Below the pieces are notes generated by a model, which saw only the letters and a list, made by a program, of their open reading frames with translations, searched no databases and was not told where the DNA came from. This document shows, one piece after another, positions 165 to 51,430 of a stretch of 64,000 nt of DNA. Within the stretch, counting starts at the first letter, position 1; each line of letters begins with the position of its first letter. A program made the translations under genes and the position numbers. The stretch lies in assembly GCA_000004985.1 (NCBI GenBank), contig GG738856.1; one strand, 5' to 3'. This stretch comes from Naegleria gruberi. Taxonomy: Eukaryota.

Positions 165-3100
165 TCATATCCAACTTTCATTAAGAGAATATCTTCCAAG
201 AGTTGAATAATTATCAGATATTGAATCAGTAATAGTTGATGATGTGAATTTAGATGTATCAAAAGGTCCAAGCGTATCACTGTAGCTTGATGTAGAGCTG
301 TTCAAATAGTCATCACTATCCTCATATCTCTTCTGAACATACGAGAATCCATTACTTGAATCTGATGTGTAAAAAGTGGACATGCTTTGTTCAGATGATA
401 GAAAGCTATCTTCGCTATCTGTTCCATCTGAAGACATGGACATTTTAAATGAAACCACTTTGCCAGTTATTGACCTTTTTAGCATTTCAAGTTTCAACAT
501 TTTTTCAATGTCGTTTTCATTAAGTGTTGCAAACACTTTATCTCTCTTCAATTCAACATAATCATACTTTTGTTCAGGTTGAACTGGTTCGTAAATAATC
601 TCTTCCTCTTCATAGAAGGATGATTGAGAATCTGAATATGTAACAGCTTCTGATGAAGAATAGTTAGAATTGGTCAAAGTAGATTTCTTAGGATTGGTAG
701 TAGAAGTAGTGGTTGTAAAACTAGTTTGAATATTCTGTGATTGGGTTTGCTTTGGTAATTGTGGAGCAATATGAAAGAAACTGGAAGGATTATACTGTAC
801 AAATAAATTCTTTGAATTTGTTTCGGTTGTTGTTGAAATGGTTATTGGTGGTGGTTCAGTTTGTACACCAGAAATGGATTTAGTAAATTCATTTGTTTGA
901 ACTGAGCTAGATTCTACTTTTGGAATTTCATTGAAAGTTTGTGTTGTAATGTTATATTGTTGAGCTTTTGTCTCTGTTGTTATTGAAATTGGAGTTATAG
1001 CCTCTGACATATTATCAGAGAGAATAAAGAACGTGGAATGGGGTAATCCCAGTTTTGGTTGAAAATCTTCAATGATAGGAGTTGTGGGTATTTTATCCAA
1101 ATGCTCCTCCTCTGTTTGTGTTTCAGTGGTTCCAAGTGAAGTAATTTTAGCAGTTTCCACAATTTTCAATTCCTTTTCCTTTGGTAAAATAATTTCCTTG
1201 TCTTTGGAAATATTGGCTTTGTGAGGAATAAACTCAATTTCTTTACATCCGTCATCAATAATTCTGTTTTTCACTAATGATCGATCATTCAATAAGAGTC
1301 TAAACACAAGTTCATAAATTTTCTCCAAATCAAATTCATCATAATCAATCTCAGTAAGTTCACGCACTGAATTGTGTAAGTCAAATATTGGTTGCTTTGA
1401 TTTGATATATTCAATTAAAAGGTCCTCTGTTATATTGTATATAATTTCATCATCACAGGATAAATCATTATTATAGCAAAATGAAAATAGTTCTGCACAC
1501 AATGCCCCTCCTTTAATGGACATAAACCTTTCATCATTTGTTACATGTAAATCTTCTCCTGAATCTTGTTGGCCTAATGAACTGTTCAAATAATCTCCAA
1601 TAATGTTCATGGAAATATGCTTAATTACTCTTTCTATCAAACAATTAGCATATTCTTCAAAGATTAAATCCATATTCTTTTGCTTTTTAACATAATTTGA
1701 CAAATAATGTTGACTTTTTTCATCTGTTTTGATTAATCTGTTAGAATAATGAGATGTAAAACAAATACCATCAAAATCTTCGCACTCATTAAGTTTTGGA
1801 ATTTGATGAGAAGATTTCTTTGGAAGCATTTCTCTAATTAATCTTTCCTTTTCAAACCTAGATAGTTCTTTTTCAACTTTCACATCAATACCATTTTGAA
1901 AGGACATTGCTGAACTGTCCTTTGTTGTCCAGCTCGCATTGTAACTTTCAATCTTTTCCTCCAATGAAATTTGAGCGTTGGAAGGTGGTACACTTATTGT
2001 GGAATTATCAGTAGAAGGTAATTCCGTTTGTATTTCAACCTCGTGAAGAGAAACATCTTTAGGAACTTCCGTTTGAACAGATTGGGCCTCCATTTTTGGC
2101 GTAGGTGCTGTAGGCTCAGCGGTTTGCTCATGAATTCTTGTTTCTGGTGTCATCTCCTTTAAGTTTTGGGGTTTTACAGTCTTTTTGTTCATTACTGAGA
2201 ATTTTAGTAAACTCTCAGAAAATCCTGGATACAACTTTAAAATTTCTTTGCTTGATAGATCAGTTTTTGATAGCACAATTGGTTTTGGTGGAAGGTTTTC
2301 AATTTTAACCTTTTCATCTATTGAAATTGAAAATTTTGGTTGCTCAATTAAAACAGTGTCGAGATTCAAGTTCTTCGAGAAATCTATAGATTTTCCAACT
2401 AGTTCATCAATTAAATATTTTTGCTCGTTTTGGTAAAAGTCTAAATTATCCATTGGCGAGCTATCATCCCACTTTTTAAAAATCATATATCAAAATTCAA
2501 ATAAATACTTACAGATGGATATTTGAAAATGGATGGATGTTTTTTTGACACTTCATTATGGATATCATCTATTGTTAGCTCAGCTGTTTTGGAATCTAAA
2601 TCAAACAAGGGTCTTCTTGTTTGTCTGTGGGTTCTCGAAGTACCTGTAAAAACCTTAAAATCCCTTTTAGAGTCATTTTTAAGTTGTGAAGTCTTCTTTT
2701 CAATCATTTCAAGCTTTTTACCTAGATCTTCAATTTGTTTCATTTGCTTGGACATGAGCGTTTGAGATTTCTTTTGATCTTCACTTAACTGTTTCCCAAA
2801 TCTAGAAGTAATATCCGATGTGACCTTCTGCAATTTGTCAAATTGTTTGTAAAATGTTTTTAAATCTAATCCCATCCGTGTCATTGAATTGTTTACAGTG
2901 TTAGTGACTTGACTAGCAGTTTTTACAAGAATATTGTCATACTCCTTTTCTTTTTGTTGTAACAGTTTTTCCAACATTTTTTGGAATGAGGAGAGTTTCA
3001 ACTCACTCTCCTTAACTGCATTTTCAATTTCATTTCTGAATGAAGAAATTCGTTCAATATTTTTTTCAGTAATTCTATTCTCTTTATCGAGTGGTCTATT

Positions 3101-11251: not shown

Positions 11252-12572
11252 TCAGTTGTGGAAAGAAGAGTAACATTCAATTGTTGTTGCGAGTTGCTCT
11301 CTGGCTTCGTAGAACCCATCTTCTTCAAAACCACCATCTCCCACAATCCAGTGAACGAAAGCTCTCTTACTATACATCAAATCAAATTGTTTCAGAAGGT
11401 TTTCAAGATAGCTTGTGATAGAGGTAGTATTGTTGGCAATGTGCATTACATTTGAAAAGTTGAAAGACTCTGGGTAGACATTCTCTGGCCCCTTGTTTGA
11501 TATTTGATATTGGGCTTTTTCTGTCTCATTTGAAAATTTCCAATCAGTTTTGAGTTTTTCTGAAAGTAAGCTTGTGTGATTCTTTGAAAAATCGCCTCTC
11601 ATTGCTATATTCATTGCTATGGTAACACCATTATTGGCCATATTCATTGAGGTATTTCTTGAAAAGATATCCTTTATGCTCAATTCAGTCATGGATGTAT
11701 CTTGCAAGTTTACAAAACTATTGCATATTATGTTGGCATTATATGAAATAGGAAGAGTTTCACACACATCACGTAAACTTCCTTCATTTGAATCTAATCT
11801 GAGATGTTAATGTTGAAATGTTTTGTGAAATCAGATGGTTCATTTCCTTAAAGTTTGGATTCTTTATACCACTCTCCACGCACGCATTTGATAGAGCATA
11901 ATTATCATACGAAAATATAGATTGTACATTATCATGAATATAATGCAAGGCAATAACTGCATTGTATGGCTCCAATATTGATGTAGAATAGGTTTCCGTT
12001 GGAAAAATTGAAAAGCATGACTTGATCATAGTGTCAACAATATCGTGCCCATATTTACTTACCATTGGAAGTTGAAATTCATGGGCCAAATCATAGATAA
12101 GAGAAGAGGTCGATCCAGATCCAGTTCCTCCACCAAGAGAATGAGTAACCAGTACAGTCCCCATCGAATCACAATTTTCCACCATTTTCCTCACTCTCTC
12201 CTTAACATAGTCCCACATTTCTCCACTCATGATGTGATATCCTTTTCCAAAATTTGATGAAGCATCATAATCTGCATAATCAATAGGGGAAACTATATTT
12301 TCTTCCTTAAATTGAGATTGAGATCTTGATGATGCCTTGGTCAGTCTCTGTATTTGTGAGTCTGTATCAAAGAATAAACATCGAGCATGATAAACATTCT
12401 CCATTCTGATAGACTCATCATATAAACATGATAGATTATTAATGCTATTGTTTTGTTGGCCAGGGTCAAGGGAACAAGAAGGTAATTTGTGTTCTTTGGC
12501 AAATAAATTCCAAAGATCAATTCCGATCTCACACCCACAATTGCCAAAATGAAGAAAGATCAATTCTTTCAT
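11252..12572 (-). CDS. Divergent tubulin-family protein, most similar to epsilon-tubulin. The reading frame is broken near 11765-11790.
   Basis: N-terminal MKELIFLHFGNCGCEIG (cf. GQCGNQIG). Tubulin signatures GGGTGSG and KRAFVHW. 'LISQNISTLTSQIRF' and 'DSNEGSL' match epsilon-tubulin 'SARFEGSLNMDL'. The N- and C-terminal halves lie in different frames, switching within about 20 nt, with no room for an intron. Confidence 0.6.
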
Positions 12573-12632: not shown

Positions 12633-14125
12633 TTACTTTTTTTGTGTTCTAAACAACTCTCTGTACGATAAAATCTTTTTCTTTGAGAAATTTCTAATGC
12701 CAAAACTCTTCTTGATGAGTTGACGACAATCAAACATCTTTTGTGAACTATCTTTGAGAAGCATAAAAGCTGCTTGGAAGTCATTACACTTCATTAGTTC
12801 CTTTTCGAGCAGTGTAAGATAGGTCATACCAATACGATATAAAATCTTGTACTTTTCATGAATAAAGCAATCCCAAATTCTCAATGCCGTTTCTACTGGG
12901 AATGATGTCAAATAGAGGCAGAGGAACCAATTTGGAGAAACCATAATAAATAAATTAGACTCCAGTTTCACCAGATGGTTTGTTACCTTGGGTATTCTAT
13001 CTAAACAAAGATGTTGCAAAACAAATGATTCAGAATAAACACCTTCCATACTTGAATCATACAAATCTGGTGGCATGTAACGATCTATAATTCTATCAAG
13101 TGTGAAAAATGCTTGTTGCACATTCATTCCTACCACTAACATTATACCAGCCAGGAAGTTCATTGATTGACAATATCCAACCTTTGGATTATGTAATGAG
13201 TACAAATAGAGAACATTTCTCAAAGCAATTTGATTGTGTGGATCTTTAAAGAATGGATGAGTTGGGAATGTTCTATCAACATCCTTACAAATGCAAACGA
13301 AATTCTTATCCTTTTCTCTTTCATCAATAGGAATAGCGAGTGCCTTTTCTTTCAAGTTATCAAAAATATCTTTGTGTGTTAAATATTGATAGTTTGCTCC
13401 ACTAAATAATTAATATCCACTACTACTGATCATCAATAACACACTTACCTAATAATATACCACATTACTGCTCTGTATTCCATAGGAATTCCCTTTCTTA
13501 CTAATTTTTTAAAATCATTGGATTCTTCAATAAAGTGGAAAATACGTTGTTGTTCATATTCCTCTAAGGTTGTAAATCCCTTAGCTCCGATATTGTGCTT
13601 TTGAATAAATTCTTGCCATCTCTTTCTTTGACTTTCAATTTTCTTTGCATTAAAATCCTTATGTTTTTCAAATAATTCCTTCATATCTCTGACATTTCCA
13701 TCATCATCAGAGAGATCAAATCCATAATTTTCAAGATACTTTTTACTAACATCAACAGGTTTTGCTTCCATAATTTCCAAATCTAATGTTTTTGTAGCAA
13801 TACCAATTGTTCCTGAAGAATCTTTACGAACAAAATCAACCTGTTCAACATCAACTTGTATCTGAGCAACAGCAACAGCAGAAGTAACACCTACATTACC
13901 AGCAGCAACACCATCACCTACAGAAGAAGAAGAAGTCGATGGTGCATTGTTTGTTGTTTCATCCATTTTTTCAAGGCTTTTTTCGTTCTTTCCGTTGCTA
14001 CTGTTGATGTTATTAGCTGTTGATGAACTATGATTGTTATTGTCCTTGTTGGTATCATCCTCTTCATCATCATCAGAGGAGGAGGAGGACATGAGATGGA
14101 ATGGATCATCGTCCTCTTCATCCAA
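12633..14125 (-). CDS. TBC-domain Rab GTPase-activating protein. Two exons: 14125..13449 and 13401..12633.
   Basis: Arginine-finger IxxDxxR (ICKDVDRTFP) and glutamine-finger YxQ (YCQSMNF). A 47-nt intron (GTAAGT..TTATTTAG) joins ...AVMWYII|SGANYQYL in phase 2. Acidic, Ser-rich N-terminus. Confidence 0.8.
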
Positions 14126-26657: not shown

Positions 26658-26993
26658 TTTTTTTACTGTAAATTAATCCTAAAATCATTGATAATTGGCA
26701 TGAAATTCAAAGTCTATTATCACTACTTGTTGGTAAAGCACACAGAAAATATTACTCATGTTCTCTTAATTCAAGATAATACCTCATGATCCTATTGGGA
26801 TCAGCTACACTGAAATAAAATTTTTTACTGTAAATTGAAATATTTTACAAAATAATTGAAAAATCTACTTTACAATATCATTGATCAATCCAAACATCCA
26901 ATCCAATGCCTCAGTCCACGTTTATTCAGGTAAGGAATTTGAGAAAACAATAATCTGTCACTTGTAATTTCCACATGATTATAATTAAAAAAA

Positions 26994-28741
26994 ATGTCAA
27001 CACCTCCACCTTCCTTCCATCACCATACAAGTCGATACGAAGTTGAAGATGGTTATGTAAATGATGGACTAAACTATTATCATAACGATGAGACATCACA
27101 TAACCATGCGGAAAGTGAAGGTGAATTATCATCCAATTTTTCACATCAAAATTTCTTCCAAACTCCAAATCAACCACAATCACAACAACAATCACAACAA
27201 CAAGAGGATTACTTTTATCCACAACAACAATATTATCCACCTTCTTCTCCTTATTCGTATCAGATTAGACATGCCACATCAACGAATTCTTCACAACAGT
27301 CAACCGAGTCTTTTTTTACATTCATTAATAGATATGAAAAAGATGAAGCAAGAGAGGCTGAAGAACAAGAATCGAAGGGAAAATCAGAAAATGTTTCGGA
27401 TAAAAATCAATTAAATTCTGTTTCGGAAACAAAGGATGATATTTCAATATTGTTGAGAATTTATTCGAGGAGATTTACACCAGAATGTGTTGGGCGTATA
27501 GTTTCGTTTCTTCCAGTTTCTGTGTCATCATTAGTCAGTAAATCCTATCAATTGGGTAAGTTTTTAATTATTTCGAATATATTATTAACTGTTTGTTAGT
27601 TTTTGATGTCACCCATTATAAATCCCTCTATCAATTTGGGTACAATCACTATTATTCGAAACAGAGTGAACACATTTACAAACGTGTCAATGCAACATGG
27701 AAAGAAACTCTATTAGAAATGTACAAGATGCAATTCAGAGAAAAGGAACAAATTTTGTCGAGTAAATTTCCTCATCCCTCTGTAAAACTCACTCAAAATT
27801 TTATGGGATTTGTCAACTCTGAAGATTTATTTAATTTAAAGATTAAGAATGATTTTGAAAATAGAAAATTGAGATTTACAATGATCACCTATGAAAAGTA
27901 TAATACATCTGATATGTTCAAGCTCTTTACAAAGAATAATCAGAACAAAATTTTATTGGATGACAATCTCTCTGTAGAATACGAAATGAATGTAAGTTTG
28001 AAATTATAATTTTCAGTTGACCAAGAATGATTTGTTCAGTATGTTGGATATTTATTACCTGGATCACATGATTTTTCCAATTTTGAAAGTGCAGATGCAA
28101 TTATTTTAACATACAGCGTCATTGATTTTAATTTATTTTACACAATGTCATCGTGGATCAATTTATTGGAAACAATAGCTCCAGATGTTCCTGTAATTTT
28201 ACTTGGCACTCATGCTAACTATAGAAAAGATTCCCATATCATGTCAAAATTGAGAAAGAAGGAACGTTATGTCATGAGATTTATGGAATGTATTGAACTT
28301 GCCAAGAGATTTAATATTCTCTCATATTTGGAAATGGATGCCTGTAACTATGTTGGATATGAAAAGGAGATTTCATCTTGTGAAGAGGAAGAAAAGCATC
28401 ATATTGAACCAAATCAATCCAATCATTCAGAAAATATAATCAATGAAGAATCAGTGCCTTCTCAACAATCAACAACTAATAATGAATCTCAAATCTTATA
28501 TGATGATGACGATGTTCCAATAGAGACAATCATTGATATTTCATCAGAACAAGTACTTACTCCATTTATTGAACTACCAGATAACATCTCCAACCAAATT
28601 CATCAAACTCTAATTGCATCTTCCAAGGCAGCCATTCATTTTGCTCATGTAAATAATGAAATTTCTATCAGAAACTTTTGGAAAGGAACAACCTCTTTCT
28701 ACAGTGAATGTATGCCTTCAAGAAAGTGTTCCATCCAATAA
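26994..28741 (+). CDS. Rho/Ras-like small-GTPase-fold protein with degenerate P-loop and switch II (putative pseudo-GTPase) and a Q-rich N-terminus. Three exons: 26994..27555, 27600..27991, 28040..28741.
   Basis: Exon 3 aligns with the Rho G3–G4 region but DTAGQE is replaced by LPGSHDF (YLLPGSHDF...AIILTYSV...VPVILLGTHANYR). Exon 2 lacks GxxxxGKT. Introns are 44 nt (GTAAGT..TTAAC..TTGTTAG) and 48 nt (GTAAGT..TTGTTCAG), phases 1 and 0. Confidence 0.5.
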
Positions 28742-29125: not shown

Positions 29126-29337
29126 ATTATCTTCCTTTTTGAACACCAACGAAATTATATCTGTGCTGAAACATCATATCTTGGCAATTTCTCTTGCCCT
29201 ACATCATCACAAAATAAATTTTCTAGTAGATAAATTTAAATTTAATTAGTGTTGTAACGTTATTGAAATTTAAAACCGGCTTATACAAAACAAGGGAACA
29301 TGACAACAACTTACACACGCAAGTTCATAACAAAAAA

Positions 29338-30909
29338 ATGTATTATTACTTTGGTGCAATTCCAATTTGCATTGTGAAGGATTTTGAATTGATGAATAAG
29401 AAATTCGTCAATCATGCTAATCATCAACAAGCTGACAAACTGATGAGTCCATTGGTAGCTTGTTGGAAATATCATTCCGCATGTTTTTCCTCTTTAATTA
29501 GCAAGGAATTGGATGCTCAGGGAAGATTAGTTCGAATGTTCTTTTACAATTTGGAGCAACAGATGAATGCAATCTCTTTTCAATTGTGTTTATTGGATGA
29601 AGATGAAAGGCCAGTGAATAGATTTGATTCTTTCTATCTGCCCCAGCTCATAGCAAGAAGTGTCTATTGTATCTGTACTAGACTTCATTCATCATTAACA
29701 GAGTGCAATTTGGAGTCTTCTTTCCAGGATGTTTCAGAACAATTTGGAAAGGTAGTCGAGTTTTTGGTTGGTGGAATGGAACATGTAAGGAGTACGAAGG
29801 GATTTGATGAATGTGTAAGAAGGTTGACAATTCTAATTGTTAGTAATGAGTGTAATGCAGAGTTTAAACAAGCTCTCTTGTTGATTTACTTATCTTGCTT
29901 ATGTGATAGATATGTAGATATTGAGGTGAAGAGTGAATATCCATTAATTACTTACACCAATGAGTTGGCCAGATTGATTTCTTATCCGATTGACTCGAAT
30001 AGAATTGTGGAATTTGTTTCAAATGATTTTTATAAGAATTTTGAAATTACAAAAGATACTCAACTTGAACATATTTTGGATGATTTTGAAAATGAGGAAA
30101 CATTGGAAAATAACCTTATTGCTTTTACACAATATTCATATTTTGAGAAGACTGTTTTTGCTCCTCAATTAAGACAATTGAGTTTTCCATTCTTGAAGCA
30201 GACACCTTTCGGTGATTGCCAAGAGTTGAATCTTTTTGAGATGTTTATCAACAATTTTATATTTAATCATCAAACTAAAAAGTATGATCTTTCATTGCTT
30301 CCAGATAATGTCAATTTCAATAAGGAAATTGAAAGACTTTTATTGGACTATGATTTAGATCCTAAACATGTAAATTGCCTTTCTTTTAGATCCAGATATC
30401 ACACAATTTTACAAGGAAAACCAGAGGTCTTTCAATATGTTAATGCAAGCTTTTTAACTGAACCAGAAAAAGATTACGAAGTGGATGTGTCAGCCTTCAA
30501 TATCCTTGCATATTGTGAGTGGCTATTTGGTATTTCATTAGAAAAGAAGGCTCCACTCAACAAATTCCTCAATTTCGATTCCTATCTCGAATTAAGAAAA
30601 TCAAAACAGGATAATTCCTGTTCCATCTCCTATGAGGATATCACCATATTGAAACAAGCTAGATTGAGATTTTGTTTGGAAAAAGGATTCAAGAAGGAAA
30701 AGAAACAACTTGAATTGGCTTTCAAAGAACTTTCTGCCAAGTTGACCACAAAGGATAGATCAATAGAAATCAAAATGGACAGAACAACAAAACAAAATCA
30801 CAACCTAATCATTGCCAAGTATCATTCTCTCAACAACAATAATTTATCATATGAAATAATAGCAGATCAATATGGAGCTCATGTAGCCACTTACCGAAAT
30901 GCAAAATAA
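29338..30909 (+). CDS. Hypothetical protein (~520 aa)
   Basis: Long ORF. First ATG at 29338 (MYYYFGAIP...). No recognisable domain. Confidence 0.45.
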   Translation: MYYYFGAIPICIVKDFELMNKKFVNHANHQQADKLMSPLVACWKYHSACFSSLISKELDAQGRLVRMFFYNLEQQMNAISFQLCLLDEDERPVNRFDSFYLPQLIARSVYCICTRLHSSLTECNLESSFQDVSEQFGKVVEFLVGGMEHVRSTKGFDECVRRLTILIVSNECNAEFKQALLLIYLSCLCDRYVDIEVKSEYPLITYTNELARLISYPIDSNRIVEFVSNDFYKNFEITKDTQLEHILDDFENEETLENNLIAFTQYSYFEKTVFAPQLRQLSFPFLKQTPFGDCQELNLFEMFINNFIFNHQTKKYDLSLLPDNVNFNKEIERLLLDYDLDPKHVNCLSFRSRYHTILQGKPEVFQYVNASFLTEPEKDYEVDVSAFNILAYCEWLFGISLEKKAPLNKFLNFDSYLELRKSKQDNSCSISYEDITILKQARLRFCLEKGFKKEKKQLELAFKELSAKLTTKDRSIEIKMDRTTKQNHNLIIAKYHSLNNNNLSYEIIADQYGAHVATYRNAK

Positions 30910-30961
30910 AGTCTTAAAACTTTTTGGCGCCAATTTTGGTGGTTTTTCAACTTTAAAAAAA

Positions 30962-31975
30962 ATGAGCGAAGAACCACAAGAAATCCACGCAGAGAAACGA
31001 TCGAGGAGAGCAAGAAGAGTACCACGGAATAAAACACAACAGGATGCAGCAATAGGTCTTGATGAGTCTGTTATTATTGATGAGACCAATCAATCTATAA
31101 TTGCAACAACTGTAGAATCGGAGAAAGAGGAACAAACAAATAATAATCAATCAATTATTGTACAACAACAAGAAAGTCAAACTAAATCTTCAGAGAATGT
31201 GCTCACCACAACTAAATTATTATCAATAGAGAAGATTTATAAAATAGTTAGGAGCAAGATTGAAAGTTCTAATACATCATCTGATGATAATGATAATTCA
31301 AAGTTTGTTTTGACATTGACTGAGAATCAAATCAAATTACGTCTAAACATTGCAAAGGAGAGGAAATTAGCCTCATTACCAGAGGCTGTTGTCAATAAGA
31401 TTTGTGACATTTTCTCAATTGCTGTTTGTTATTTGTGGAAAGTGGAGGAAAAACAAAACTTTTTACTGAATTGTTTTGGATCTTCATACATGTTGGCTCT
31501 TCGTGAAATATTAATGAAATTTTACATTCCTCTGAAAGATGATCCAATGTCAAATCAAACCCTTCGATTTCTTGTACCTGAGGAAGTGAAAGATTATGAA
31601 AAGCTTGACAAGATCTTGGAAGAGCAAGAAAAAGTTATTTCAGCAATGAATACAAGCAAAACTACTTCTGAAAAGAAAGAGAGTGACGTTGATTCATCTC
31701 TCTATGAGCTCATTCAGAAACACCAAGAAAGATACCAAAACAGGCAGAGTAAATTCCTTACAGGGCTAGCAAACCCAGAAAATTTCCTTAAAGATGCCGA
31801 CCTATTCAGACAACAAAGAATCAAAAAGTCTGAAGCACAGAGAAAGCAAAGAAAAGCTATGCTTGATAGAAAGAAGTTAGCACATTCAAGCACAATCAAA
31901 GCTGAATCACTTCCAGATAATAGATTTACAGCTGGTATTAAGGTTAAGAGCAAGAAAAAGAAAACCAAGAAATAA
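30962..31975 (+). CDS. Hypothetical K/E/S-rich protein (~337 aa), probably nuclear
   Basis: ORF with ATG at 30962 (MSEEPQ...). Basic N-terminal stretch (KRSRRARRVPR) and lysine-rich C-terminus. Confidence 0.4.
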   Translation: MSEEPQEIHAEKRSRRARRVPRNKTQQDAAIGLDESVIIDETNQSIIATTVESEKEEQTNNNQSIIVQQQESQTKSSENVLTTTKLLSIEKIYKIVRSKIESSNTSSDDNDNSKFVLTLTENQIKLRLNIAKERKLASLPEAVVNKICDIFSIAVCYLWKVEEKQNFLLNCFGSSYMLALREILMKFYIPLKDDPMSNQTLRFLVPEEVKDYEKLDKILEEQEKVISAMNTSKTTSEKKESDVDSSLYELIQKHQERYQNRQSKFLTGLANPENFLKDADLFRQQRIKKSEAQRKQRKAMLDRKKLAHSSTIKAESLPDNRFTAGIKVKSKKKKTKK

Positions 31976-31996
31976 AGATAATTTGTAAATTATTCA

Positions 31997-33055
31997 TTAT
32001 TTGATTTTGTTTTTTTTGGTTTTTGGCTGCTCTTCAAATGAGTTGTGAAATTGGAGTTGATTTGTAGAGATTTCAGTTGCGGTTTTTTTTGGACGACCTC
32101 TAGTCTTACCAGTATTTGAGAATTTGCATTCTTTCCCCAATCTAAAACATCTACTACAAGGATCCTTTCCATCACATTTCTTTTTTGCTATTCTACATGT
32201 ACTACATGCCATTTTGGTTCGTTCTGGGCTGAATGAAGAGTTTTCCTCATTGCATGTATCATTAGAAGATGTCGAAGAATTAGTATTTACAGGATGATAT
32301 GGTTTTCTCTTCAATGAGACATCTGGTATCTCTTTTGTGGCATTCATGTCAGATGTCGAATGATTTACATGAGATATTTCCCGTCCTGCATGCATGTGCA
32401 TGTTGTGATAAGATGCATGTTCAGATGAAGATACATGGTTGGTATGTGTTGCTACAGTGCATGTATCAGTGTTATTTGCATCATGCTTAACATTCATGTT
32501 ACATGAAGTGTTTATAGATGTGCCTTTCGCATGCATATCGTCGGTTTTCATTGGAAAGGTAGAATGATAGGAGAGTGGATGGTGGATTTGGGAAGAGGAT
32601 ACTGGAGAAAATGGCATGGGTGAAGTATGTTTGGTGTTGTATTTGGTCAGTCTGTTGGATGAATTAAACACTTGGTGCATCATAGAAGCATGTATGTTAT
32701 TGGCATGTAGATCATAAAGTAAAGATGATGGACTTTTGCTACCTGTTGGTGGTCTAGAACGGCTTGATATCTGTGATGATTCAGATAGGAGTGTATTGAT
32801 TGGTGGAAGTCTAATGTCTTCTTGATTGGGAGAAGGTGAAATAGATGAATAATTGTGGAACATGTGACTGGATGTACCAGCATTGTCTCCCTTCATCACA
32901 GATGATGCTGATCCATTAGATGGTTGTATGTTATAAGGTACATCATTGGTTGGAGGACTAGTAGTATTGGTAGTATTGGTATACTGTGATGTAAAGTATT
33001 GTTGCGAGGAGTAAATCGGTGGAGAATGATGGCTGCCTGGCATTGCCATTAACAT
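31997..33055 (-). CDS. Zn(II)2Cys6 binuclear-cluster (GAL4-type) DNA-binding protein, with the domain at the C-terminus
   Basis: Canonical CSTCRIAKKKCDGKDPCSRCFRLGKEC (C-x2-C-x6-C-x5-C-x2-C-x6-C) followed by a basic stretch. The N-terminal 300 aa are S/T/N/H-rich low complexity. Confidence 0.7.
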   Translation of the reverse strand: MLMAMPGSHHSPPIYSSQQYFTSQYTNTTNTTSPPTNDVPYNIQPSNGSASSVMKGDNAGTSSHMFHNYSSISPSPNQEDIRLPPINTLLSESSQISSRSRPPTGSKSPSSLLYDLHANNIHASMMHQVFNSSNRLTKYNTKHTSPMPFSPVSSSQIHHPLSYHSTFPMKTDDMHAKGTSINTSCNMNVKHDANNTDTCTVATHTNHVSSSEHASYHNMHMHAGREISHVNHSTSDMNATKEIPDVSLKRKPYHPVNTNSSTSSNDTCNEENSSFSPERTKMACSTCRIAKKKCDGKDPCSRCFRLGKECKFSNTGKTRGRPKKTATEISTNQLQFHNSFEEQPKTKKNKIK

Positions 33056-33370
33056 TTTGTTTTGGATTAGTTGAGTTGTTTTTTTTGAGTAAGAAGGCGA
33101 CTAGAGTCGCAATCATAAAGTAGGGTATGTCTTTTGAATCATTGTGTTTTTGTTGTTTAGTAGCCAAAAAGGCCCAATCGACTGAAATTGTTTGATGGCT
33201 TGGTGACATGTTCATATGAATTGTGATTCAACACTATTCTAAAACAAGCAAATGTTGGGTAAATAACAAGAATACATGCGGCTCATTTGTTGCTTGATTC
33301 CCTTCAATTTTGTCAATGCTGTTTAACCCGCTACTTTTTGGGTTCCCTGTCAAAATATGTCAAAACTCTT

Positions 33371-34595
33371 TTATGGAAAATCAGAGTTTCCAATAAAGCC
33401 GGTTAATGAAGCTGCGAAGTCGTTTGGATTGTCTGCGTGCACCCAGTGAGATGCATTCTTTAATTGTTTCTCAAGTTCAAACAAAGTACAACTATTGAAA
33501 ACTTACCTTAATTGTTTTGAATTTGGCGCGAGGAAAAAATAATTTTGTAATTTCCTCGTACTTGTCTGTGACGTACATTGAATTCTCTCCTCTCAAAAAC
33601 AAAATATTATCGTAATTATATTGAATTGGTGCTAATTGAGCGTAAATACCAAGAGGATCATCTCTTACTTTGAATGGGAAGGAACCAATTTGAATTAAAT
33701 ATTCTTCAATAACATCTAAATTACATCTCCATTCCCATTTGACAGAGTTGTCGTCCAACGTTTTTCTCATAAGATTAGTAAGAAGGAATAAACGAACATC
33801 CCTTGAAATGTTTCCATTTGATAAATCTTTGAGAATTATCTCAGCTTGATTTCTAGTTTTAAGTTTGGAAAGATCTATTCCTTTCATTGCCTTGATGTGA
33901 TTTTGAATAACCCATCTAGAGTCTTGAGTATAATCAACAGGTGAAATATCCACGACTACTATCTTGTTGAATTTTTTCAATAATTCCTTCTCGTTACCAT
34001 TCATAGTTTCTCTTAAAAGCATGTTCATGATAGCTTTACCAGACATGGAGTGTCCGACCAGGTTTACTTTTTCTAATTGTTGTTCTTCACATAAATTCAA
34101 AATATCATCAGCCAAATCATCGTAGGTCATTGATTTAGTATGAAGACTTCTTCCGTGATTTCTACAATCCATCAAGAAGGCTTCTCTTTCTCCTTTCAAT
34201 AATTCTGGATGATAATTATTGATGAGGGAGACATAATTCTGACTACTTCCCAATAATCCATGCATAAATAATAGAGTATCTTTTTTAATAATCGATTCCG
34301 AGCCTCCATTTGTTTTTAATTCTTCATATTGTCCTCGAGAATATTGTTTTCCTTCCGCATCAAATCTTAGGAAGAACAAATGACTATCAAGTACTACATC
34401 TTCATCATCATTCTTCTTATTAGAGAGACAATGTCCAGTAGAAAATGAAACTCTCTGTATTGTTGTTGTATCAAATAATAAATTAATTGTTTTTTTCAAT
34501 TCAAGTGCGTAATGTTGTTGTGGAAAGTGTGAATGTTTGACCCTTGTGAGAAGACCTCTTCTTGGGCTTGACGTGTTGAATGTGAGTCTGTTCAT
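33371..34595 (-). CDS. Alpha/beta-hydrolase, ABHD11/Imo32-like. Two exons: 34595..33507 and 33457..33371.
   Basis: Oxyanion/HG motif (LLFMHGLLGS). Nucleophile elbow GHSMSG. The catalytic His (NASHWVHADNP) is supplied by a short 3' exon after a 49-nt intron (GTAAGT..AATTAAAG). N-terminal presequence-like region. Confidence 0.75.
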
Positions 34596-43668: not shown

Positions 43669-44139
43669 AGAAAAGAAGAAGAAACAACAGAGTGAAAATA
43701 TTGCTAGATATGAAGAAGGCTTTTTTTTTGATTGTCCGTTGTGCGCGCACGTGGGGTAAATTGATTTTCCTGCTTGGCTTGTGGTGAGAAGAAGGATGTT
43801 CCTCTTTTTTTAATTAATTCTTGTTGGGGGATGATATTTCAATTATTATTTGGTTTATTGTTTTTTCTGTTAATGAGACAATGGTTGCTGTAGTTCAAAT
43901 AATAAGATTTCCATTTTCTTGGTTTAGTCTCATTTTGATTTTGGATAAAGATGACAATCATTAAAAAGCTTTAAATTTCCCAATAGGAATAGCGTTCAAT
44001 CTGAAGGCGTGTAATATATCACTATCCGAAGCAAATAATCATAATATTACCAATAGTAAAGATGTAATAAATTTTCAATAAACAAAATTAAAGAAATTAA
44101 TGATTATATTAATTAGCGAACAGGTATTAATTTAAAAAA

Positions 44140-45873
44140 ATGTACGGAACAAGAAGTGTTGTTGGAAAGTGTGTTACTTCAGGGCTCTTCTCAAAGAAAT
44201 ACTCATCACCAATTTGGATGAATGTAAAAACATTATCATGTGGAAAGGGATTTAAAACACATTCTTTTTTGAGTGATAAATCTAATCATGAACATACTAG
44301 TGTGAGCTCCGATGAAGAATATTTGCAAATGAGAAAGGAAGAATTAAAGCAATTTCAACAAAAGTATCCGAATGTATTGCCAACACTTTATCCAAATCAT
44401 TTTGCTTTAACTAGTAACATTAAAGAGTACAAGGAAAAATATGATTATCTTCAACCTAGTGAAAAATTGAAGGATGTTGAGGAATGTATTGCTGGAAGAA
44501 TTATCAGTAAGAGAAAGGCAAGCTCTAAACTTTTTTTCTATACAATTAGAACTAATAATGATCATTCCCTTCATCAAGTTCAAATTATGACTGGCTCCGA
44601 ATATTATGATGAAAGTAATAGAACTACTGATGAAACCAATTTCTCTCTAATTAATACCATCCTAAGAAAAGGTGACATTATAGGAATTAAAGGATTTCCA
44701 GCCAAATCCGGCAAGGGTGAATTGAGTATTATTCCAAAACAAATTACATTACTCAGCCCATGCTTGCATCAACTTCCTCACAAGGTTTCTTACTCCGAAG
44801 GCACTTCCCTTGATGATATTGAAAAGAGATTTAGATATAGATATTTGGATTTATTAACAAATCACGAAGAGCTTTACAATATATTTTTAATTAGAAATAA
44901 GACTATGAGTTTTATCAGAAACTTTTTTACCAATAAGGGTTTCCTCGAAGTTGAAACTCCTATTCTCAGTGAAAAGAGTGGTGGCGCCAACGCTAAACCT
45001 TTCGAAACTCATTTGAATGCCCTCGATATGGATTTAAAGTTGAGAATTGCCCCAGAATTATACTTGAAACAATTAGTTATTGGTGGTATGGACAGAGTGT
45101 TTGAATTGAGTAAAGTTTTTAGAAATGAAGGAATGGATTCTACACACAATCCTGAATTCACCAGCTGTGAAGCTTATCAAGCATTTGCTGATTATAATGA
45201 AATGATGGATATGACTGAAGAGTTTTTCAGACAAATTGTTACAGAAATCAATGGCTCACCTATTCTCAAAGTTGATGATATCGGAGAGATTGACTTTAGT
45301 AAGCCTTTCAGACGTGTTTCTTTTATTGATTCGATTGAGGAACATATTAAGGAAAAACTTCCATTGCCTACTGACCCAGACGCAGTCAACAAATTATTAG
45401 ATATCTGCAAGAAACACAAGGTTAAATATTCAACAGAAAAAGTTAATTATGGATACCTGTTAGACAAGTTGCTTGGTACCTTTGTTGAGCCTGAATGTGT
45501 TCAACCAACATTTATCATGGACCATCCTGTTGATTTGAGTCCACTTTCTAAATCTCACAGAGATAGTTCACTTATCACTGAAAGATTTGAACTTTTCATT
45601 GGAACAAAGGAATTGTGTAATGCCTACACTGAATTGAACGATCCAGAAGATCAAAGAGAAAGATTCAGAAAACAACAAGAAAAGAAGAAGCAAGACGATG
45701 AAGCACATGAAAATGATGAAGCTTTCTGTAAAGCTCTCGAATATGGATTGCCTCCTACAGGTGGTTGGGGTATTGGTGTTGATAGACTGGTAATGCTCTT
45801 GTCTAATCAAAAATCAATCAGAGATGTCTTGTTATTCCCAATGCTCAAGCCAAAGAATGTTTCAAAGGATTAA
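44140..45873 (+). CDS. Lysyl-tRNA synthetase (class II)
   Basis: Class II motifs: motif 2 FRNEGMDSTHNPEFTSCEAY, motif 3 GGWGIGVDRLVMLL. Anticodon-binding OB fold at the N-terminus. N-terminal extension that may be a targeting sequence. Confidence 0.9.
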   Translation: MYGTRSVVGKCVTSGLFSKKYSSPIWMNVKTLSCGKGFKTHSFLSDKSNHEHTSVSSDEEYLQMRKEELKQFQQKYPNVLPTLYPNHFALTSNIKEYKEKYDYLQPSEKLKDVEECIAGRIISKRKASSKLFFYTIRTNNDHSLHQVQIMTGSEYYDESNRTTDETNFSLINTILRKGDIIGIKGFPAKSGKGELSIIPKQITLLSPCLHQLPHKVSYSEGTSLDDIEKRFRYRYLDLLTNHEELYNIFLIRNKTMSFIRNFFTNKGFLEVETPILSEKSGGANAKPFETHLNALDMDLKLRIAPELYLKQLVIGGMDRVFELSKVFRNEGMDSTHNPEFTSCEAYQAFADYNEMMDMTEEFFRQIVTEINGSPILKVDDIGEIDFSKPFRRVSFIDSIEEHIKEKLPLPTDPDAVNKLLDICKKHKVKYSTEKVNYGYLLDKLLGTFVEPECVQPTFIMDHPVDLSPLSKSHRDSSLITERFELFIGTKELCNAYTELNDPEDQRERFRKQQEKKKQDDEAHENDEAFCKALEYGLPPTGGWGIGVDRLVMLLSNQKSIRDVLLFPMLKPKNVSKD

Positions 45874-45959
45874 ATTATTATTTATTTCAACTTCCAACTT
45901 TCATATATTCTTGTATCAATAATTGTGTAGAAATTACAAGATTTGTAAAGTTAAAAAAA

Positions 45960-47042
45960 ATGAAACTAGAAACCCTTGCGTACATTTTGCACGAGTTGTG
46001 GGAACATTTTCTGTTAATACCCTGGTTTCTTCTCCTCACGCTCCGATATTCACTTTATTATTTTAATAATAATAGTGTTATTGGAAGATTTATTAACACA
46101 ACATCCCGATACTTTTTCAAAGATGTTAAATACGGAAAAGAGGAGAGCAATGTAATGGACATTTTTCCAGCCAAATCAGTAAAAATTGAAGATGGAAAAC
46201 ATAGAGTGTTATTATTTATTCATGGTGGTGGATGGGCATCAGGTAGGTTAATTGTTTGTCACACTCAAAATACAAATTGAATAGGAAATAAGCATATTTA
46301 TCATTATTTAGGAAAAAGGTAATTTTAAAATTGAATTTATTCTAAACTATTTCAAAGCTTGTCACAAAAATTCGAGGATTCTACAATAATTATCTGTAAT
46401 TACAGACTATGCCCAAAAGCATTCATTGAGGATCAAATGTGTGACATTAAAAAGTGTATTGAGTGGATTTATTCAGATTTGAATAATTATTTATTATCAA
46501 ACAACCTCTCACACTTATCAGATATAGCCAATACAGATATTGAGCTGACAGCATGTGGGCATTCAGCTGGTGGACATATTGTTTTAACAAGTATTTTGGA
46601 CGATCCATCTTTTGCAAAATACATCAAAAATCTCATTTGTCTTGCTGCAGTTTATGATTTGGAATCACAATATGAAAAAGAAAAGACTAGAGGAGTTGAA
46701 AAGATATCAGGTCTGTACAGAGTAATGAGAGGCGACTTGACCAAATATGCTCCTGTTGCAATATTGAAAAAGTCATCTCCCTTAGTACTCGAACAAATTC
46801 TCAACAATAACCCAGACCTTAGAATATCCATTCTTCATGGTCAAGAAGATACCACTGTAGATTTGTCATTTATACATGAATTTACTGATTTGTATCAGAA
46901 TTCTGAGTGTAGAAAGTGCCATTTTGCAAAGATCATTTTAGATGGTTTTAACCATACTGATTTTGTCAAACCCCTTATGAATATTAATTACCCACACAAA
47001 AAGGATCGCCTTTTGGATTTGCTCTCCTCAATAATACTGTAA
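45960..47042 (+). CDS. Esterase/lipase-fold protein, kynurenine formamidase (AFMID/Bna7)-like. Two exons: 45960..46246 and 46358..47042.
   Basis: HGGGW oxyanion motif (FIHGGGWASG), YxLxP (CNYRLCP), nucleophile elbow GHSAGG. 111-nt intron with a weak GTTAAT donor and CAAAG acceptor. This is the only acceptor that avoids stop codons. Confidence 0.6.
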
Positions 47043-50700: not shown

Positions 50701-51430
50701 AAACTTGTTAGAGATAAGCCTTCTGCCTCATTGGTATCTCGTGAAGTCTTTTTTTCCATGGGATTCCAAATTCTTATTACCGTAATTAGTCAAATTATTA
50801 TTTGGAATAATATCAAAGTTCAAGGATTTTTCACTCCTCTTGATCCTGAACCAGAAACCAAAAAGAATATCAGATGTTATGAAACCACTGCCATGTTCTT
50901 GCTTTCTACATTCTTTACATATAATGCTGGTTTGTCATACAGTATTTCCAAACCATTCAAGAAACCTGTTTATAGAAATAGTAAGTATTTAAAGAAATAT
51001 TTTGAATTTTTTAACAATTAATTTAGAGCTCTACTTTGGACTTTTGGTTTTACTTTTTGGCATTCTCACCTACTGTTTCCTGATGCCTGACTATTATTTG
51101 AGTTGGTTCTTGTATATTAGAAGTATGCCAGTATACTATCGTTTCATTCTCTTTGGTGTCGCATTAATTCACATGGCCATCAGTTATAGCTTTGAAAGAT
51201 TCTTCATTCTTGGACCAGGTGTGAAGTGGTTGAGAGTGTTTTCAATCCGTCCTTTGAAACGTCTCTATTATTATTTGAGAGGACGTAACACAAGAATCTC
51301 CAAGAAGAGAAGACTCTATTCTAAATTGAAAGAAGCAATCAATGAAAGAGGAAGAACATTTGCCTCCACATTCTCTGAAAAGGATAGCTTCACTCAAACT
51401 AAGAGTTTTGGAGGTGTAGAATTAGTTTAA
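47738..51430 (+). CDS. P5B-type P-type ATPase (ATP13A2/Ypk9-like), ~1200 aa. Three exons: 47738..48001, 48046..50980, 51027..51430.
   Basis: DKTGTIT phosphorylation site. GDGANDAGALKAAHVGISLS hinge. PPALP in M4 marks it as P5B rather than P5A (PPELP). N-terminal hairpin (AQMVLIK) and C-terminal TM helices are recovered by 44-nt and 46-nt introns (GTAAGT..CTATAG and GTAAGT..AATTTAG). Confidence 0.85.

What the first reader, a model, noticed from the sequence alone, without database searches (positions are those of the whole stretch)
11750..11800. Divergent epsilon-like tubulin gene whose two halves are in different reading frames
The N-terminal 262 aa and C-terminal 171 aa of a clearly tubulin-like protein lie in frames offset by +1. 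The switch occurs within ~20 nt (catctcagattagattcaaatga). The two frames coincidentally both read tubulin-like (…SQIRF / LRLDSNEGSL) and no intron can fit there. Either the assembly has a 1-nt indel, the gene is a recent pseudogene, or a programmed frameshift occurs. The protein is also unusually divergent (GNCGCEIG for GQCGNQIG).
Basis: seen in the sequence. Interest (0 to 1): 0.5.

Follow-up and report, generated by a model that had tools for sequence, protein, structure and literature searches.

The report
Two-base deletion in divergent Naegleria alpha-tubulin
A very divergent alpha-tubulin-like gene of the amoeba Naegleria gruberi is broken by the loss of two bases (TC) that an intact sister copy keeps, so it is a very recent disabling mutation or a draft-sequence error, not an unusual way of reading the genetic code.

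Summary
On the minus strand a tubulin gene changes frame within 11806..11784. The window is Naegleria gruberi. The gene is XP_002679827.1, which RefSeq labels 'LOW QUALITY PROTEIN: alpha-tubulin' and whose model hides the break by skipping 7 nt.

- **Family:** it is alpha-like, not epsilon-like. The best 120 database hits and the best 60 PDB hits are all alpha-tubulins.
- **Cause of the break:** an intact paralog (XP_002672810.1, 60% identical) is also found on an environmental contig, where it reads AGA TTC TCA AAT GAA (RFSNE) in one frame. The window reads AGATTC--AAATGAA. The lesion is therefore a 2-nt deletion at a TCTC microrepeat, with 28 and 18 identical bases on either side.
- **Selection:** both halves were constrained (dN/dS 0.42 upstream, 0.32 downstream, dS 0.68). 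There is no further decay, so the lesion is very young or an artefact.
- **Recoding:** I found no support. The paralog is unshifted, no RNA structure follows the site, and no other frame break in the window lacks an intron explanation.
- **Gene model:** a 42-nt in-frame intron (12062..12021) was mis-read as coding.

Real deletion or consensus error cannot be settled without reads. Interest is low.

The parts
12063..12572 (-). Exon 1 of the divergent alpha-tubulin-like gene (170 codons, MKELIFLHFGNCGCEIG ... EFQLPM). It contains the GGGTGSG nucleotide-binding motif.
   Evidence: ORF. Pfam PF00091 at 3.8e-33. 100% match to XP_002679827.1. The exon end is set by a GTAAGT donor at the same position as the paralog's GTAGGT donor.
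12021..12062 (-). 42-nt spliceosomal intron (GTAAGT...TCAAG).
   Evidence: The homologous 47-nt stretch in the paralog (L002 431..477) contains a stop and changes frame, so it must be spliced out. Donor and acceptor align between the two copies. The 14 residues are an insertion relative to alpha-tubulins. They coincide largely with the lowest-confidence stretch of the AlphaFold model, residues 169-178 at pLDDT below 50. Other introns in the window are 41-47 nt with GTAAGT donors. No cDNA was available, so splicing is inferred.
11790..12020 (-). Exon 2, the part upstream of the lesion, in frame with exon 1 (77 codons, SCFSIFPTETYSTS ... TSQIRF).
   Evidence: Translation and alignment to the paralog and to alpha-tubulins.
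11789..11792 (-). Lesion site. The window reads TTCA where the paralog reads TTCTCA, so one TC of a TCTC microrepeat is missing (a -2 deletion, net +1 frame change).
   Evidence: DNA alignment of the window with L002: a 2-nt gap flanked by 28 and 18 identical bases (sequence). The NEG-M paralog protein also reads TSQIRFSNEGSL.
11784..11786 (-). Premature TGA met by the upstream frame directly after TTC AAA.
11783..11789 (-). The 7 nt (AAATGAA) skipped by the public gene model so that it reads ...SQIRF|GSLRD.... This is an annotation patch, not an intron.
   Evidence: Comparison of P0001 with the two-frame translations. RefSeq tags the product 'LOW QUALITY PROTEIN'.
11252..11788 (-). Exon 2 downstream of the lesion, in the +1 frame (NEGSLRDV ... 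ECYSSFHN plus the TGA stop at 11254..11252). It encodes the intermediate and C-terminal tubulin domains.
   Evidence: The frame is open. PDB phmmer of this half alone gives only alpha-tubulins, at about 4e-11. It is 65% identical to the paralog, with dN/dS 0.32. The tubulin fold is predicted across both halves (pTM 0.85, TM about 0.85 to tubulin chains).

Best explanation
The locus is a two-exon gene for a highly divergent alpha-tubulin-family protein of Naegleria gruberi. It is one of that species' 'bonus' divergent alpha-tubulins, and its reconstructed product is 426 aa.

In the sequence given, one TC of the ancestral ...AGA TTC TCA AAT GAA... (RFSNE) is missing. A ribosome reading from the start codon therefore reads TTC AAA and stops at TGA, and the remaining 178 codons (NEGSL...) lie in the +1 frame.

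I take this to be a genuine and very recent replication-slippage deletion. That would make it a null allele or nascent pseudogene in strain NEG-M, tolerated because an intact paralog exists. It is not a device for gene expression.

**Shown here:** the identity of the gene, its alpha affinity, the exact lesion, the past purifying selection on both halves, and the lack of further decay.

**Inferred:** that the deletion exists in the organism's DNA rather than only in the assembly, and that the truncated product is non-functional.
For: - **Identity:** 100% match to XP_002679827.1 / D2V7X5, 'LOW QUALITY PROTEIN: alpha-tubulin [Naegleria gruberi]'.
- **Intact paralog:** XP_002672810.1 lies on another NEG-M scaffold and is 60% identical over the full length. 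Its copy in a near-identical environmental strain (L002, 97% identical to it) reads TTC TCA AAT GAA in a single frame. The window differs only by a 2-nt gap inside an otherwise identical 48-nt block.
- **Type of lesion:** loss of one unit of a TCTC dinucleotide repeat is a typical slippage mutation. It is less typical of multi-read Sanger consensus errors (my knowledge).
- **Assembly quality nearby:** every other frame break I examined in the window fits a 41-47 nt intron or separate genes; the 44131/45807 pair has only a weak intron candidate and was not resolved. A 3,995-nt comparison with an independent strain shows 24 substitutions and no indel. The assembly is therefore not riddled with indel errors.
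- **Past function:** dN/dS is 0.37 overall, 0.42 upstream and 0.32 downstream of the lesion, at dS 0.68. A full tubulin fold is predicted.
- **Redundancy:** the intact paralog makes loss of this copy tolerable (inference).
Against: - No reads, cDNA or second assembly of this locus could be reached, so a consensus error cannot be excluded.
- There is no sign of decay at all: no second stop or indel in 1.3 kb.
- At conserved alpha-tubulin columns this copy keeps as many ancestral residues as the intact paralog, or more (8 vs 7 upstream, 9 vs 3 downstream).
- The deletion sits in the most conserved nucleotide block of the gene pair.

The last three points fit an error as well as they fit a very recent mutation.
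Confidence: 0.55

Rival explanations
1. Consensus or assembly error. The organism's DNA reads TTCTCAAAT, the gene is intact and functional, and two bases were dropped in the draft sequence.
For: - The C-half shows no relaxation of constraint: dN/dS is 0.32 downstream of the break.
- There are no further disabling changes.
- This copy retains more ancestral alpha residues downstream than the paralog does.
- The flanks are identical to the paralog for 28 and 18 nt.
- RefSeq flags the product as low quality.
- The public genome is a draft (PMC9081340).
Against: - Losing two bases from a non-homopolymer context across multiple reads is an uncommon error type (my knowledge).
- No other unexplained frame break occurs in about 45 genes of the window.
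- There are no indels in 3,995 nt when compared with an independent strain.
- There are no Ns or gaps nearby.
Confidence: 0.38
2. Programmed +1 ribosomal frameshift at a 'shifty stop'. With Lys-tRNA on AAA in the P site and UGA in the A site, the ribosome slips one base and continues with GAA GGA..., giving full-length ...RFKEGSL.... This would resemble the AAA-UAA/UAG sites of Euplotes or the UCC-UGA site of antizyme.
For: - The motif UUC AAA UGA A sits exactly at the frame junction.
- Both halves look fully coding, with no decay.
Against: - The paralog has an ordinary single frame at the homologous site. The shift is therefore not a conserved feature, and the motif is simply what remains after deleting TC.
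- No significant RNA structure lies downstream (z = -1.05).
- The only other AAA-stop/+1 junction in the window (30904..30910) separates two independent genes.
- The other frame breaks examined fit introns or separate genes.
- The one paper holding both 'Naegleria' and 'ribosomal frameshifting' is on a tRNA-modifying enzyme, judged from its title and abstract.
- UGA followed by a purine is generally an efficient terminator (my knowledge).
Confidence: 0.03
3. One haplotype only. The deletion is real but heterozygous, the assembly picked the null allele, and the cell still makes the protein from the other allele.
For: This is a variant of the best explanation. It would account for the complete lack of decay. 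Nucleotide differences of about 0.6% between very close N. gruberi genomes are seen.
Against: Nothing in the window bears on ploidy or allelic state. It could not be tested here.
Confidence: 0.2

Closest known systems
Naegleria gruberi paralog XP_002672810.1 (EFC40066.1, D2VT10_NAEGR), annotated alpha-tubulin
   Same: - 60% identical over the full length, with the same start MKELIFLH(F/I)GNCG.
- An intron at the same position.
- The same shortened H8-S7 segment and the same lack of an acidic tail.
- An identical 48-nt block around RFSNEGSL.
   Different: - The paralog has one continuous frame (TTC TCA AAT); the window copy lacks TC.
- It lies on a different scaffold with different neighbours.
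- Its intron is 47 nt rather than 42 nt.
Canonical alpha-tubulin (e.g. PDB 6e88_A, 1jff_A)
   Same: - Best sequence match of any tubulin class, at 8.5e-44 for the whole protein.
- The GGGTGSG motif and the alpha-type C-terminal motif FDLMYSKRAFVHW...EARE.
- Predicted fold with TM about 0.85 to tubulin chains.
   Different: - Only about 30% identical.
- T1 loop reads GNCGCEIG where alpha-tubulins read GQAGxQIG.
- About 10 residues shorter after RF(SN)EGSL, in the H8-S7 region.
- No acidic C-terminal tail.
- The C-half misses Pfam Tubulin_C at E <= 0.01.
Naegleria mitotic (divergent) alpha-tubulins (Velle et al. 2022, PMC9036621)
   Same: They are lineage-specific, divergent alpha-tubulin paralogs within the 13-member alpha set of N. 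gruberi.
   Different: [quoted passage not shown] This gene is about 30% identical to any alpha-tubulin and has no homolog outside N. gruberi in the searches made. It belongs with the 'bonus' highly divergent set described in PMC9081340.
Tubulin pseudogenes (e.g. the 48 or more human tubulin pseudogenes, PMC4202323)
   Same: A tubulin-family coding sequence carrying a frame-disrupting indel.
   Different: Typical tubulin pseudogenes carry several disablements and unlikely substitutions (PMC4202323). This gene has a single lesion, keeps its intron, and shows dN/dS of about 0.3-0.4.
Shifty-stop +1 frameshift sites (Euplotes AAA-UAA/UAG; antizyme UCC-UGA)
   Same: A Lys AAA codon directly followed by a stop codon, with the continuation in the +1 frame. 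The comparison with Euplotes and antizyme is from my own knowledge.
   Different: The shift is not conserved in the paralog. There is no stimulatory RNA structure. It does not recur in the window. The stop is UGA rather than UAA/UAG.
Epsilon-tubulin
   Same: However, some alpha-tubulins also read RFEGSLN (P0004).
   Different: No epsilon-tubulin appears among the best hits. N. gruberi has its own single conserved epsilon-tubulin (PMC9081340).

Membership tests
Tubulin superfamily / alpha-tubulin | Tubulin/FtsZ GTPase domain with the GGGTGSG signature | tested here: met
   PF00091 at 3.8e-33 over residues 3-231. SLGGGTGSGS is present.
Tubulin superfamily / alpha-tubulin | Tubulin C-terminal (2-layer sandwich) domain, PF03953 | tested here: inconclusive
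   The C-half gives no Pfam hit at E <= 0.01. However, the AlphaFold model has the complete tubulin fold (pTM 0.85; TM about 0.85 to tubulin chains), and the C-half hits alpha-tubulin H11-H12 at about 4e-11.
Tubulin superfamily / alpha-tubulin | Closer to alpha-tubulins than to any other tubulin class | tested here: met
   The best 120 database hits are all alpha. The best 60 PDB hits are all alpha, both for the whole protein and for the C-half. The nearest named relatives are other N. gruberi 'alpha-tubulin' entries. No formal phylogeny including delta, epsilon and zeta tubulins was made.
Tubulin superfamily / alpha-tubulin | Canonical T7-loop/H8 segment and acidic C-terminal tail, as needed for a polymerising alpha subunit | tested here: not met
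   Both this gene and its paralog are about 10 residues shorter after RF(SN)EGSL, and they end ...ECYSSFHN / ...SSIKNN without an acidic tail. The gene is therefore alpha-derived but not a canonical alpha-tubulin.
Epsilon-tubulin | Best similarity to epsilon-tubulins | tested here: not met
   No epsilon-tubulin appears among the best hits. The literature reports a separate conserved epsilon in N. gruberi (PMC9081340). I made no direct scoring against named epsilon sequences.
Programmed +1 ribosomal frameshifting | Frameshift site conserved in homologs | tested here: not met
   The paralog is in a single frame at the homologous site, both in NEG-M and in an environmental strain.
Programmed +1 ribosomal frameshifting | Shift-prone codon followed by a stop or slow codon | tested here: met
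   UUC AAA UGA A lies at the junction. The motif is a by-product of the deletion.
Programmed +1 ribosomal frameshifting | Stimulatory element, or recurrence in other genes of the genome | tested here: not met
   Downstream fold z = -1.05. The second AAA-stop candidate separates two genes. The other breaks fit introns or separate genes; one pair (44131/45807) was not resolved.
Programmed +1 ribosomal frameshifting | Trans-frame protein product | not testable with these tools
   This needs proteomics or ribosome profiling.
Pseudogene | Disabling mutation in the coding sequence | tested here: met
   A 2-nt deletion leads to a premature TGA. This is conditional on the sequence being correct.
Pseudogene | Relaxed constraint or additional disablements | tested here: not met
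   dN/dS is 0.32 downstream of the break. There are no other stops or indels. There is no excess loss of conserved residues. If it is a pseudogene, it is very young.
Pseudogene | Lesion present in the organism's DNA; loss of expression | not testable with these tools
   No reads or cDNA for this locus could be reached.

The most novel reading that the evidence does not exclude
After the 2-nt deletion, the site UUC AAA UGA acts as a spontaneous 'shifty stop'. A useful fraction of ribosomes slip +1 and make full-length tubulin (...RFKEGSL...), which would explain why the downstream half shows no decay. This would be an evolutionary snapshot of how obligatory +1 frameshift sites of the Euplotes kind arise, in a eukaryote that, as far as I know, uses the standard genetic code (the long ORFs here are consistent with that).
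Probability: 0.03. Interest if true: 0.6.

Novelty: already known. Interest (0 to 1): 0.15.

Why it matters
This matters little beyond annotation. The gene and its frame problem are already recorded in public databases as a patched 'LOW QUALITY PROTEIN'.

What this analysis adds is practical:
- the exact lesion, a missing TC;
- a corrected gene model, with a 42-nt intron removed and a 426-aa product;
- the intact paralog;
- evidence that these extremely divergent 'bonus' alpha-like tubulins of Naegleria evolved under purifying selection (dN/dS about 0.37). They are therefore, or very recently were, working proteins rather than junk.

That last point bears on the open question raised in PMC9081340 of what the bonus tubulins do.

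Tried and rejected
- **Intron at the junction:** rejected. The 23-nt overlap contains no GT, and the paralog's DNA is colinear there.
- **Alternative genetic code or stop readthrough:** rejected. The C-half is in a different frame, and long standard-code ORFs fill the window.
- **4-nt GAAG tandem duplication as the cause:** rejected. Removing it leaves TGA in frame (read directly from the sequence).
- **Second +1 'AAA TAA A' junction at 30904..30910:** rejected as a frameshift. A 337-aa protein starts downstream of it, and a Willaertia homolog covers the upstream ORF only.
- **L002 as an ortholog from another species:** my first reading, later corrected. Its 90% cluster contains a NEG-M protein from another scaffold, so it is a paralog, which is consistent with the lack of synteny.
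- **Exact-sequence look-ups of the 262-aa ORF and of P0001:** nothing on record.
- **Two JGI metagenome scans with junction patterns:** no match.
- **Literature searches for the accession numbers and for frameshifting in Naegleria:** nothing relevant.
- **AFDB Foldseek library:** unavailable.
- **Word-index protein search:** it missed the paralog, which only the exhaustive search found. Absence is therefore weak evidence.
- **My early impression that alpha's catalytic D251/E254 are conserved:** dropped as alignment-dependent.

Full report
**What is there**

Reading the minus strand, an ORF starts at 12572 (ATG AAA GAA TTG...) and runs 262 codons to TTC AAA TGA, with the TGA at 11786..11784. 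A second frame, +1 relative to the first, is open from 11806 to a TGA at 11254..11252.

The N-half matches Pfam Tubulin PF00091 at 3.8e-33. The C-half has no Pfam hit at 0.01, but on its own it matches helices H11-H12 of alpha-tubulins in the PDB at about 4e-11.

Each half has positive codon-usage log-odds only in its own frame, and its other two frames carry 12-24 stops. The two open frames are therefore not chance.

**Where it comes from**

The merged protein is 100% identical to XP_002679827.1 / EFC47083.1 / D2V7X5_NAEGR, annotated 'alpha-tubulin [Naegleria gruberi]' and tagged 'LOW QUALITY PROTEIN' in RefSeq. The public model reads ...SQIRF|GSLRD.... It simply skips the 7 nt AAATGAA (11789..11783) to restore the frame. 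The window has 31-37% G+C, and its genes carry 41-47 nt GTAAGT...AG introns.

**Which tubulin**

- The best 120 database hits are all alpha-tubulins, at about 30% identity.
- The best 60 PDB hits are all alpha chains, both for the whole protein (8.5e-44) and for the C-half alone.
- The C-terminal motif FDLMYSKRAFVHW...EARE is the alpha form (visible in the alignment).
- The nearest named relatives after the paralog are other N. gruberi 'alpha-tubulin' entries, XP_002672843.1 and XP_002679287.1.
- An AlphaFold model has a complete tubulin fold (pTM 0.85; Foldseek TM about 0.85 to tubulin chains).

The literature reports 13 alpha and 9 beta genes in N. gruberi (PMC9036621). These include seven 'bonus' highly divergent alpha-tubulins with gaps and additions, alongside single conserved gamma, delta and epsilon tubulins (PMC9081340). 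The gene is therefore one of the bonus alpha-like tubulins, not an epsilon-tubulin. It is not a canonical alpha either:
- the T1 loop reads GNCGCEIG;
- it is about 10 residues shorter after RF(SN)EGSL;
- it has no acidic tail.

**What the frame break is**

An exhaustive HMMER search found a 239-aa protein, P0124, that is 66% identical and crosses the junction in one stretch. It is encoded on a 2.1-kb contig (L002) of ENA metagenome ERZ929261. Its 90% cluster also holds XP_002672810.1, a 422-aa 'alpha-tubulin' on a different NEG-M scaffold, which is 97% identical to P0124.

L002 is therefore the copy of a paralog carried by an environmental strain very close to NEG-M. The same metagenome has a contig 99.4% identical to window 29646..33640, with no indels.

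At the junction L002 reads ACA TCT CAG ATT AGA TTC TCA AAT GAA GGA AGT TTA (TSQIRFSNEGSL) in a single frame. The window reads the same bases but lacks two (AGATTC--AAATGAAGG), with 28 identical bases before the gap and 18 after it. The NEG-M paralog protein also reads RFSNEGSL.

The lesion is thus the loss of one TC from a TCTC microrepeat, a -2 deletion and not a 1-nt indel. This explains why both frames 'read tubulin' in the overlap. The Phe codon TTC (old frame) and the Ser codon TCA (new frame) now share the two remaining bases.

**A corrected gene model**

Directly after CCA ATG the window has GTAAGT. 42 nt later comes CAAG, followed by TCA TGC TTT TCA ATT TTT CCA. The paralog has GTAGGT at the same point and an acceptor 47 nt later. 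Its intervening sequence contains a stop and changes frame, so it must be spliced out.

In the window the 42 nt happen to be in-frame and free of stops. They were therefore read as 14 coding residues (VSKYGHDIVDTMIK). Relative to alpha-tubulins these residues are an insertion, and they coincide largely with the model's lowest-confidence stretch (pLDDT below 50, residues 169-178).

With the intron removed and TC restored, the product is 426 aa and 60% identical to the paralog from the first residue to the last. Splicing is inferred, because no cDNA was available.

**Has the gene been decaying?**

A Nei-Gojobori comparison with the paralog gives dS 0.68 and dN/dS 0.37. Upstream of the lesion dN/dS is 0.42, and downstream it is 0.32. 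At columns where alpha-tubulins are at least 80% conserved, the window copy alone keeps the consensus residue at 8 sites upstream and 9 downstream. The paralog alone keeps it at 7 and 3.

There is no second stop or indel. About 5.3% of possible substitutions would create a stop. If I assume an indel-to-substitution ratio near 0.1, the absence of further disablements over 1.3 kb limits neutral divergence since the lesion to roughly 1.5% or less at 95% confidence (my estimate). Any pseudogenisation is therefore very recent.

**Is it recoding?**

The junction does read UUC AAA UGA A, which resembles a 'shifty stop'. Against recoding:
- The paralog has no shift at the homologous site.
- The 120 nt downstream fold no better than shuffled sequences (z = -1.05).
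- The only other AAA-stop/+1 junction in the window (30904..30910) separates two distinct genes. A 337-aa protein starts after it, and a Willaertia homolog covers only the upstream ORF.
- The other frame changes between long ORFs fit a GTAAGT-type intron of 41-47 nt or separate genes; one pair (44131/45807) has only a weak intron candidate and was not resolved.
- The single paper holding both 'Naegleria' and 'ribosomal frameshifting' concerns a tRNA-modifying enzyme, judged from its title and abstract.

I put recoding at about 3%.

**Real deletion or sequence error?**

This could not be settled. No other copy of this locus is in the collections I could reach.

For a real deletion:
- The mutation type is slippage at a dinucleotide repeat, and two bases lost from a non-homopolymer is unusual for a multi-read consensus error.
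- No other frame break in about 45 genes needs a frameshift to explain it.
- There are no indels in 4 kb against an independent strain.
- An intact paralog provides redundancy.

For an error:
- There is a total absence of decay.
- The public record carries a 'low quality' flag.
- The site lies in the most conserved 48-nt block of the gene pair.

I weight these 55:38. A heterozygous null allele is one form of the 'real' option.

**Verdict**

This is a known, annotated, very divergent alpha-tubulin paralog with a single 2-nt deletion. It is of low general interest. The useful outcomes are the precise lesion, a corrected exon-intron model, identification of the intact paralog, and evidence that this pair of 'bonus' tubulins evolved under purifying selection. 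Reads or cDNA from existing datasets (PMC12695648, PMC9036621) would settle the one remaining question in minutes.

Noticed in passing
window 12021..12062 (-): A 42-nt intron in the tubulin gene is in-frame and free of stops. The public protein XP_002679827.1 therefore carries 14 intron-encoded residues (VSKYGHDIVDTMIK). The paralog has its intron at the same position.
   Followed up: yes
L002 431..499 (paralog XP_002672810.1): The annotated paralog protein reads LPMV|GATYSTS, which implies a 65-nt intron (435..499) that deletes the conserved S5 strand. A 47-nt intron (431..477, GTAGGT..CGAG) keeps STFTVFPGATYSTS and matches the window gene and alpha-tubulins, so the public model is probably mis-spliced.
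   Followed up: partly
window 30887..30910 (+): ORF 29263..30909 ends AAA TAA A, and ORF 30899..31975 continues in the +1 frame with an 11-nt overlap, which looks like a second frameshift. Homologs show two separate genes. The second probably starts at the Met near 30962 (337-aa product), only about 50 nt after the first gene's stop.
   Followed up: yes
L001 (ENA ERZ929261, ERR1078381, PRJEB11402) = window 29646..33640: An environmental metagenome holds a Naegleria gruberi strain 99.4% identical to the window (24 mismatches, no indel in 3,995 nt). The same sample supplied the paralog contig L002. I did not identify the nature of the sample.
   Followed up: partly
window 11764..11811 (-) vs L002 676..723: The longest identical nucleotide run between the two paralogs is the 48-nt block centred on the deletion (73.8% identity overall; the next-longest runs are 31, 29, 27 and 26 nt). 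Local gene conversion or unusually strong constraint could explain it. This is unresolved.
   Followed up: partly
window 11255..11788 (-) and P0276: Both paralogs are about 10 residues shorter than alpha-tubulins in the segment after RF(SN)EGSL (the H8-S7 region) and lack the acidic C-terminal tail. They are unlikely to behave as ordinary polymerising alpha subunits.
   Followed up: partly
window 12633..14125 (-): A TBC/RabGAP-like gene sits directly upstream of the tubulin gene, about 60 nt from its ATG. It is split by a 47-nt GTAAGT...TTTAG intron at 13448..13402.
   Followed up: partly
window 48274..51427 (+), 26985..28006 (+), 2472..2512 (-): A P-type ATPase (Pfam E1-E2_ATPase) has a likely 46-nt intron at 50981..51026. 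There is a likely 44-nt intron at 27556..27599 and a 41-nt intron at 2512..2472. Introns here are uniformly 41-47 nt with GTAAGT donors. The ORF pair 44131..45870 / 45807..46277 was not resolved.
   Followed up: partly
method (vs 48): The word-index protein search did not return the 60-66% identical paralog cluster when queried with the whole protein. The exhaustive representative search and a C-half query did. Negative results from the former should be read with care.
   Followed up: yes
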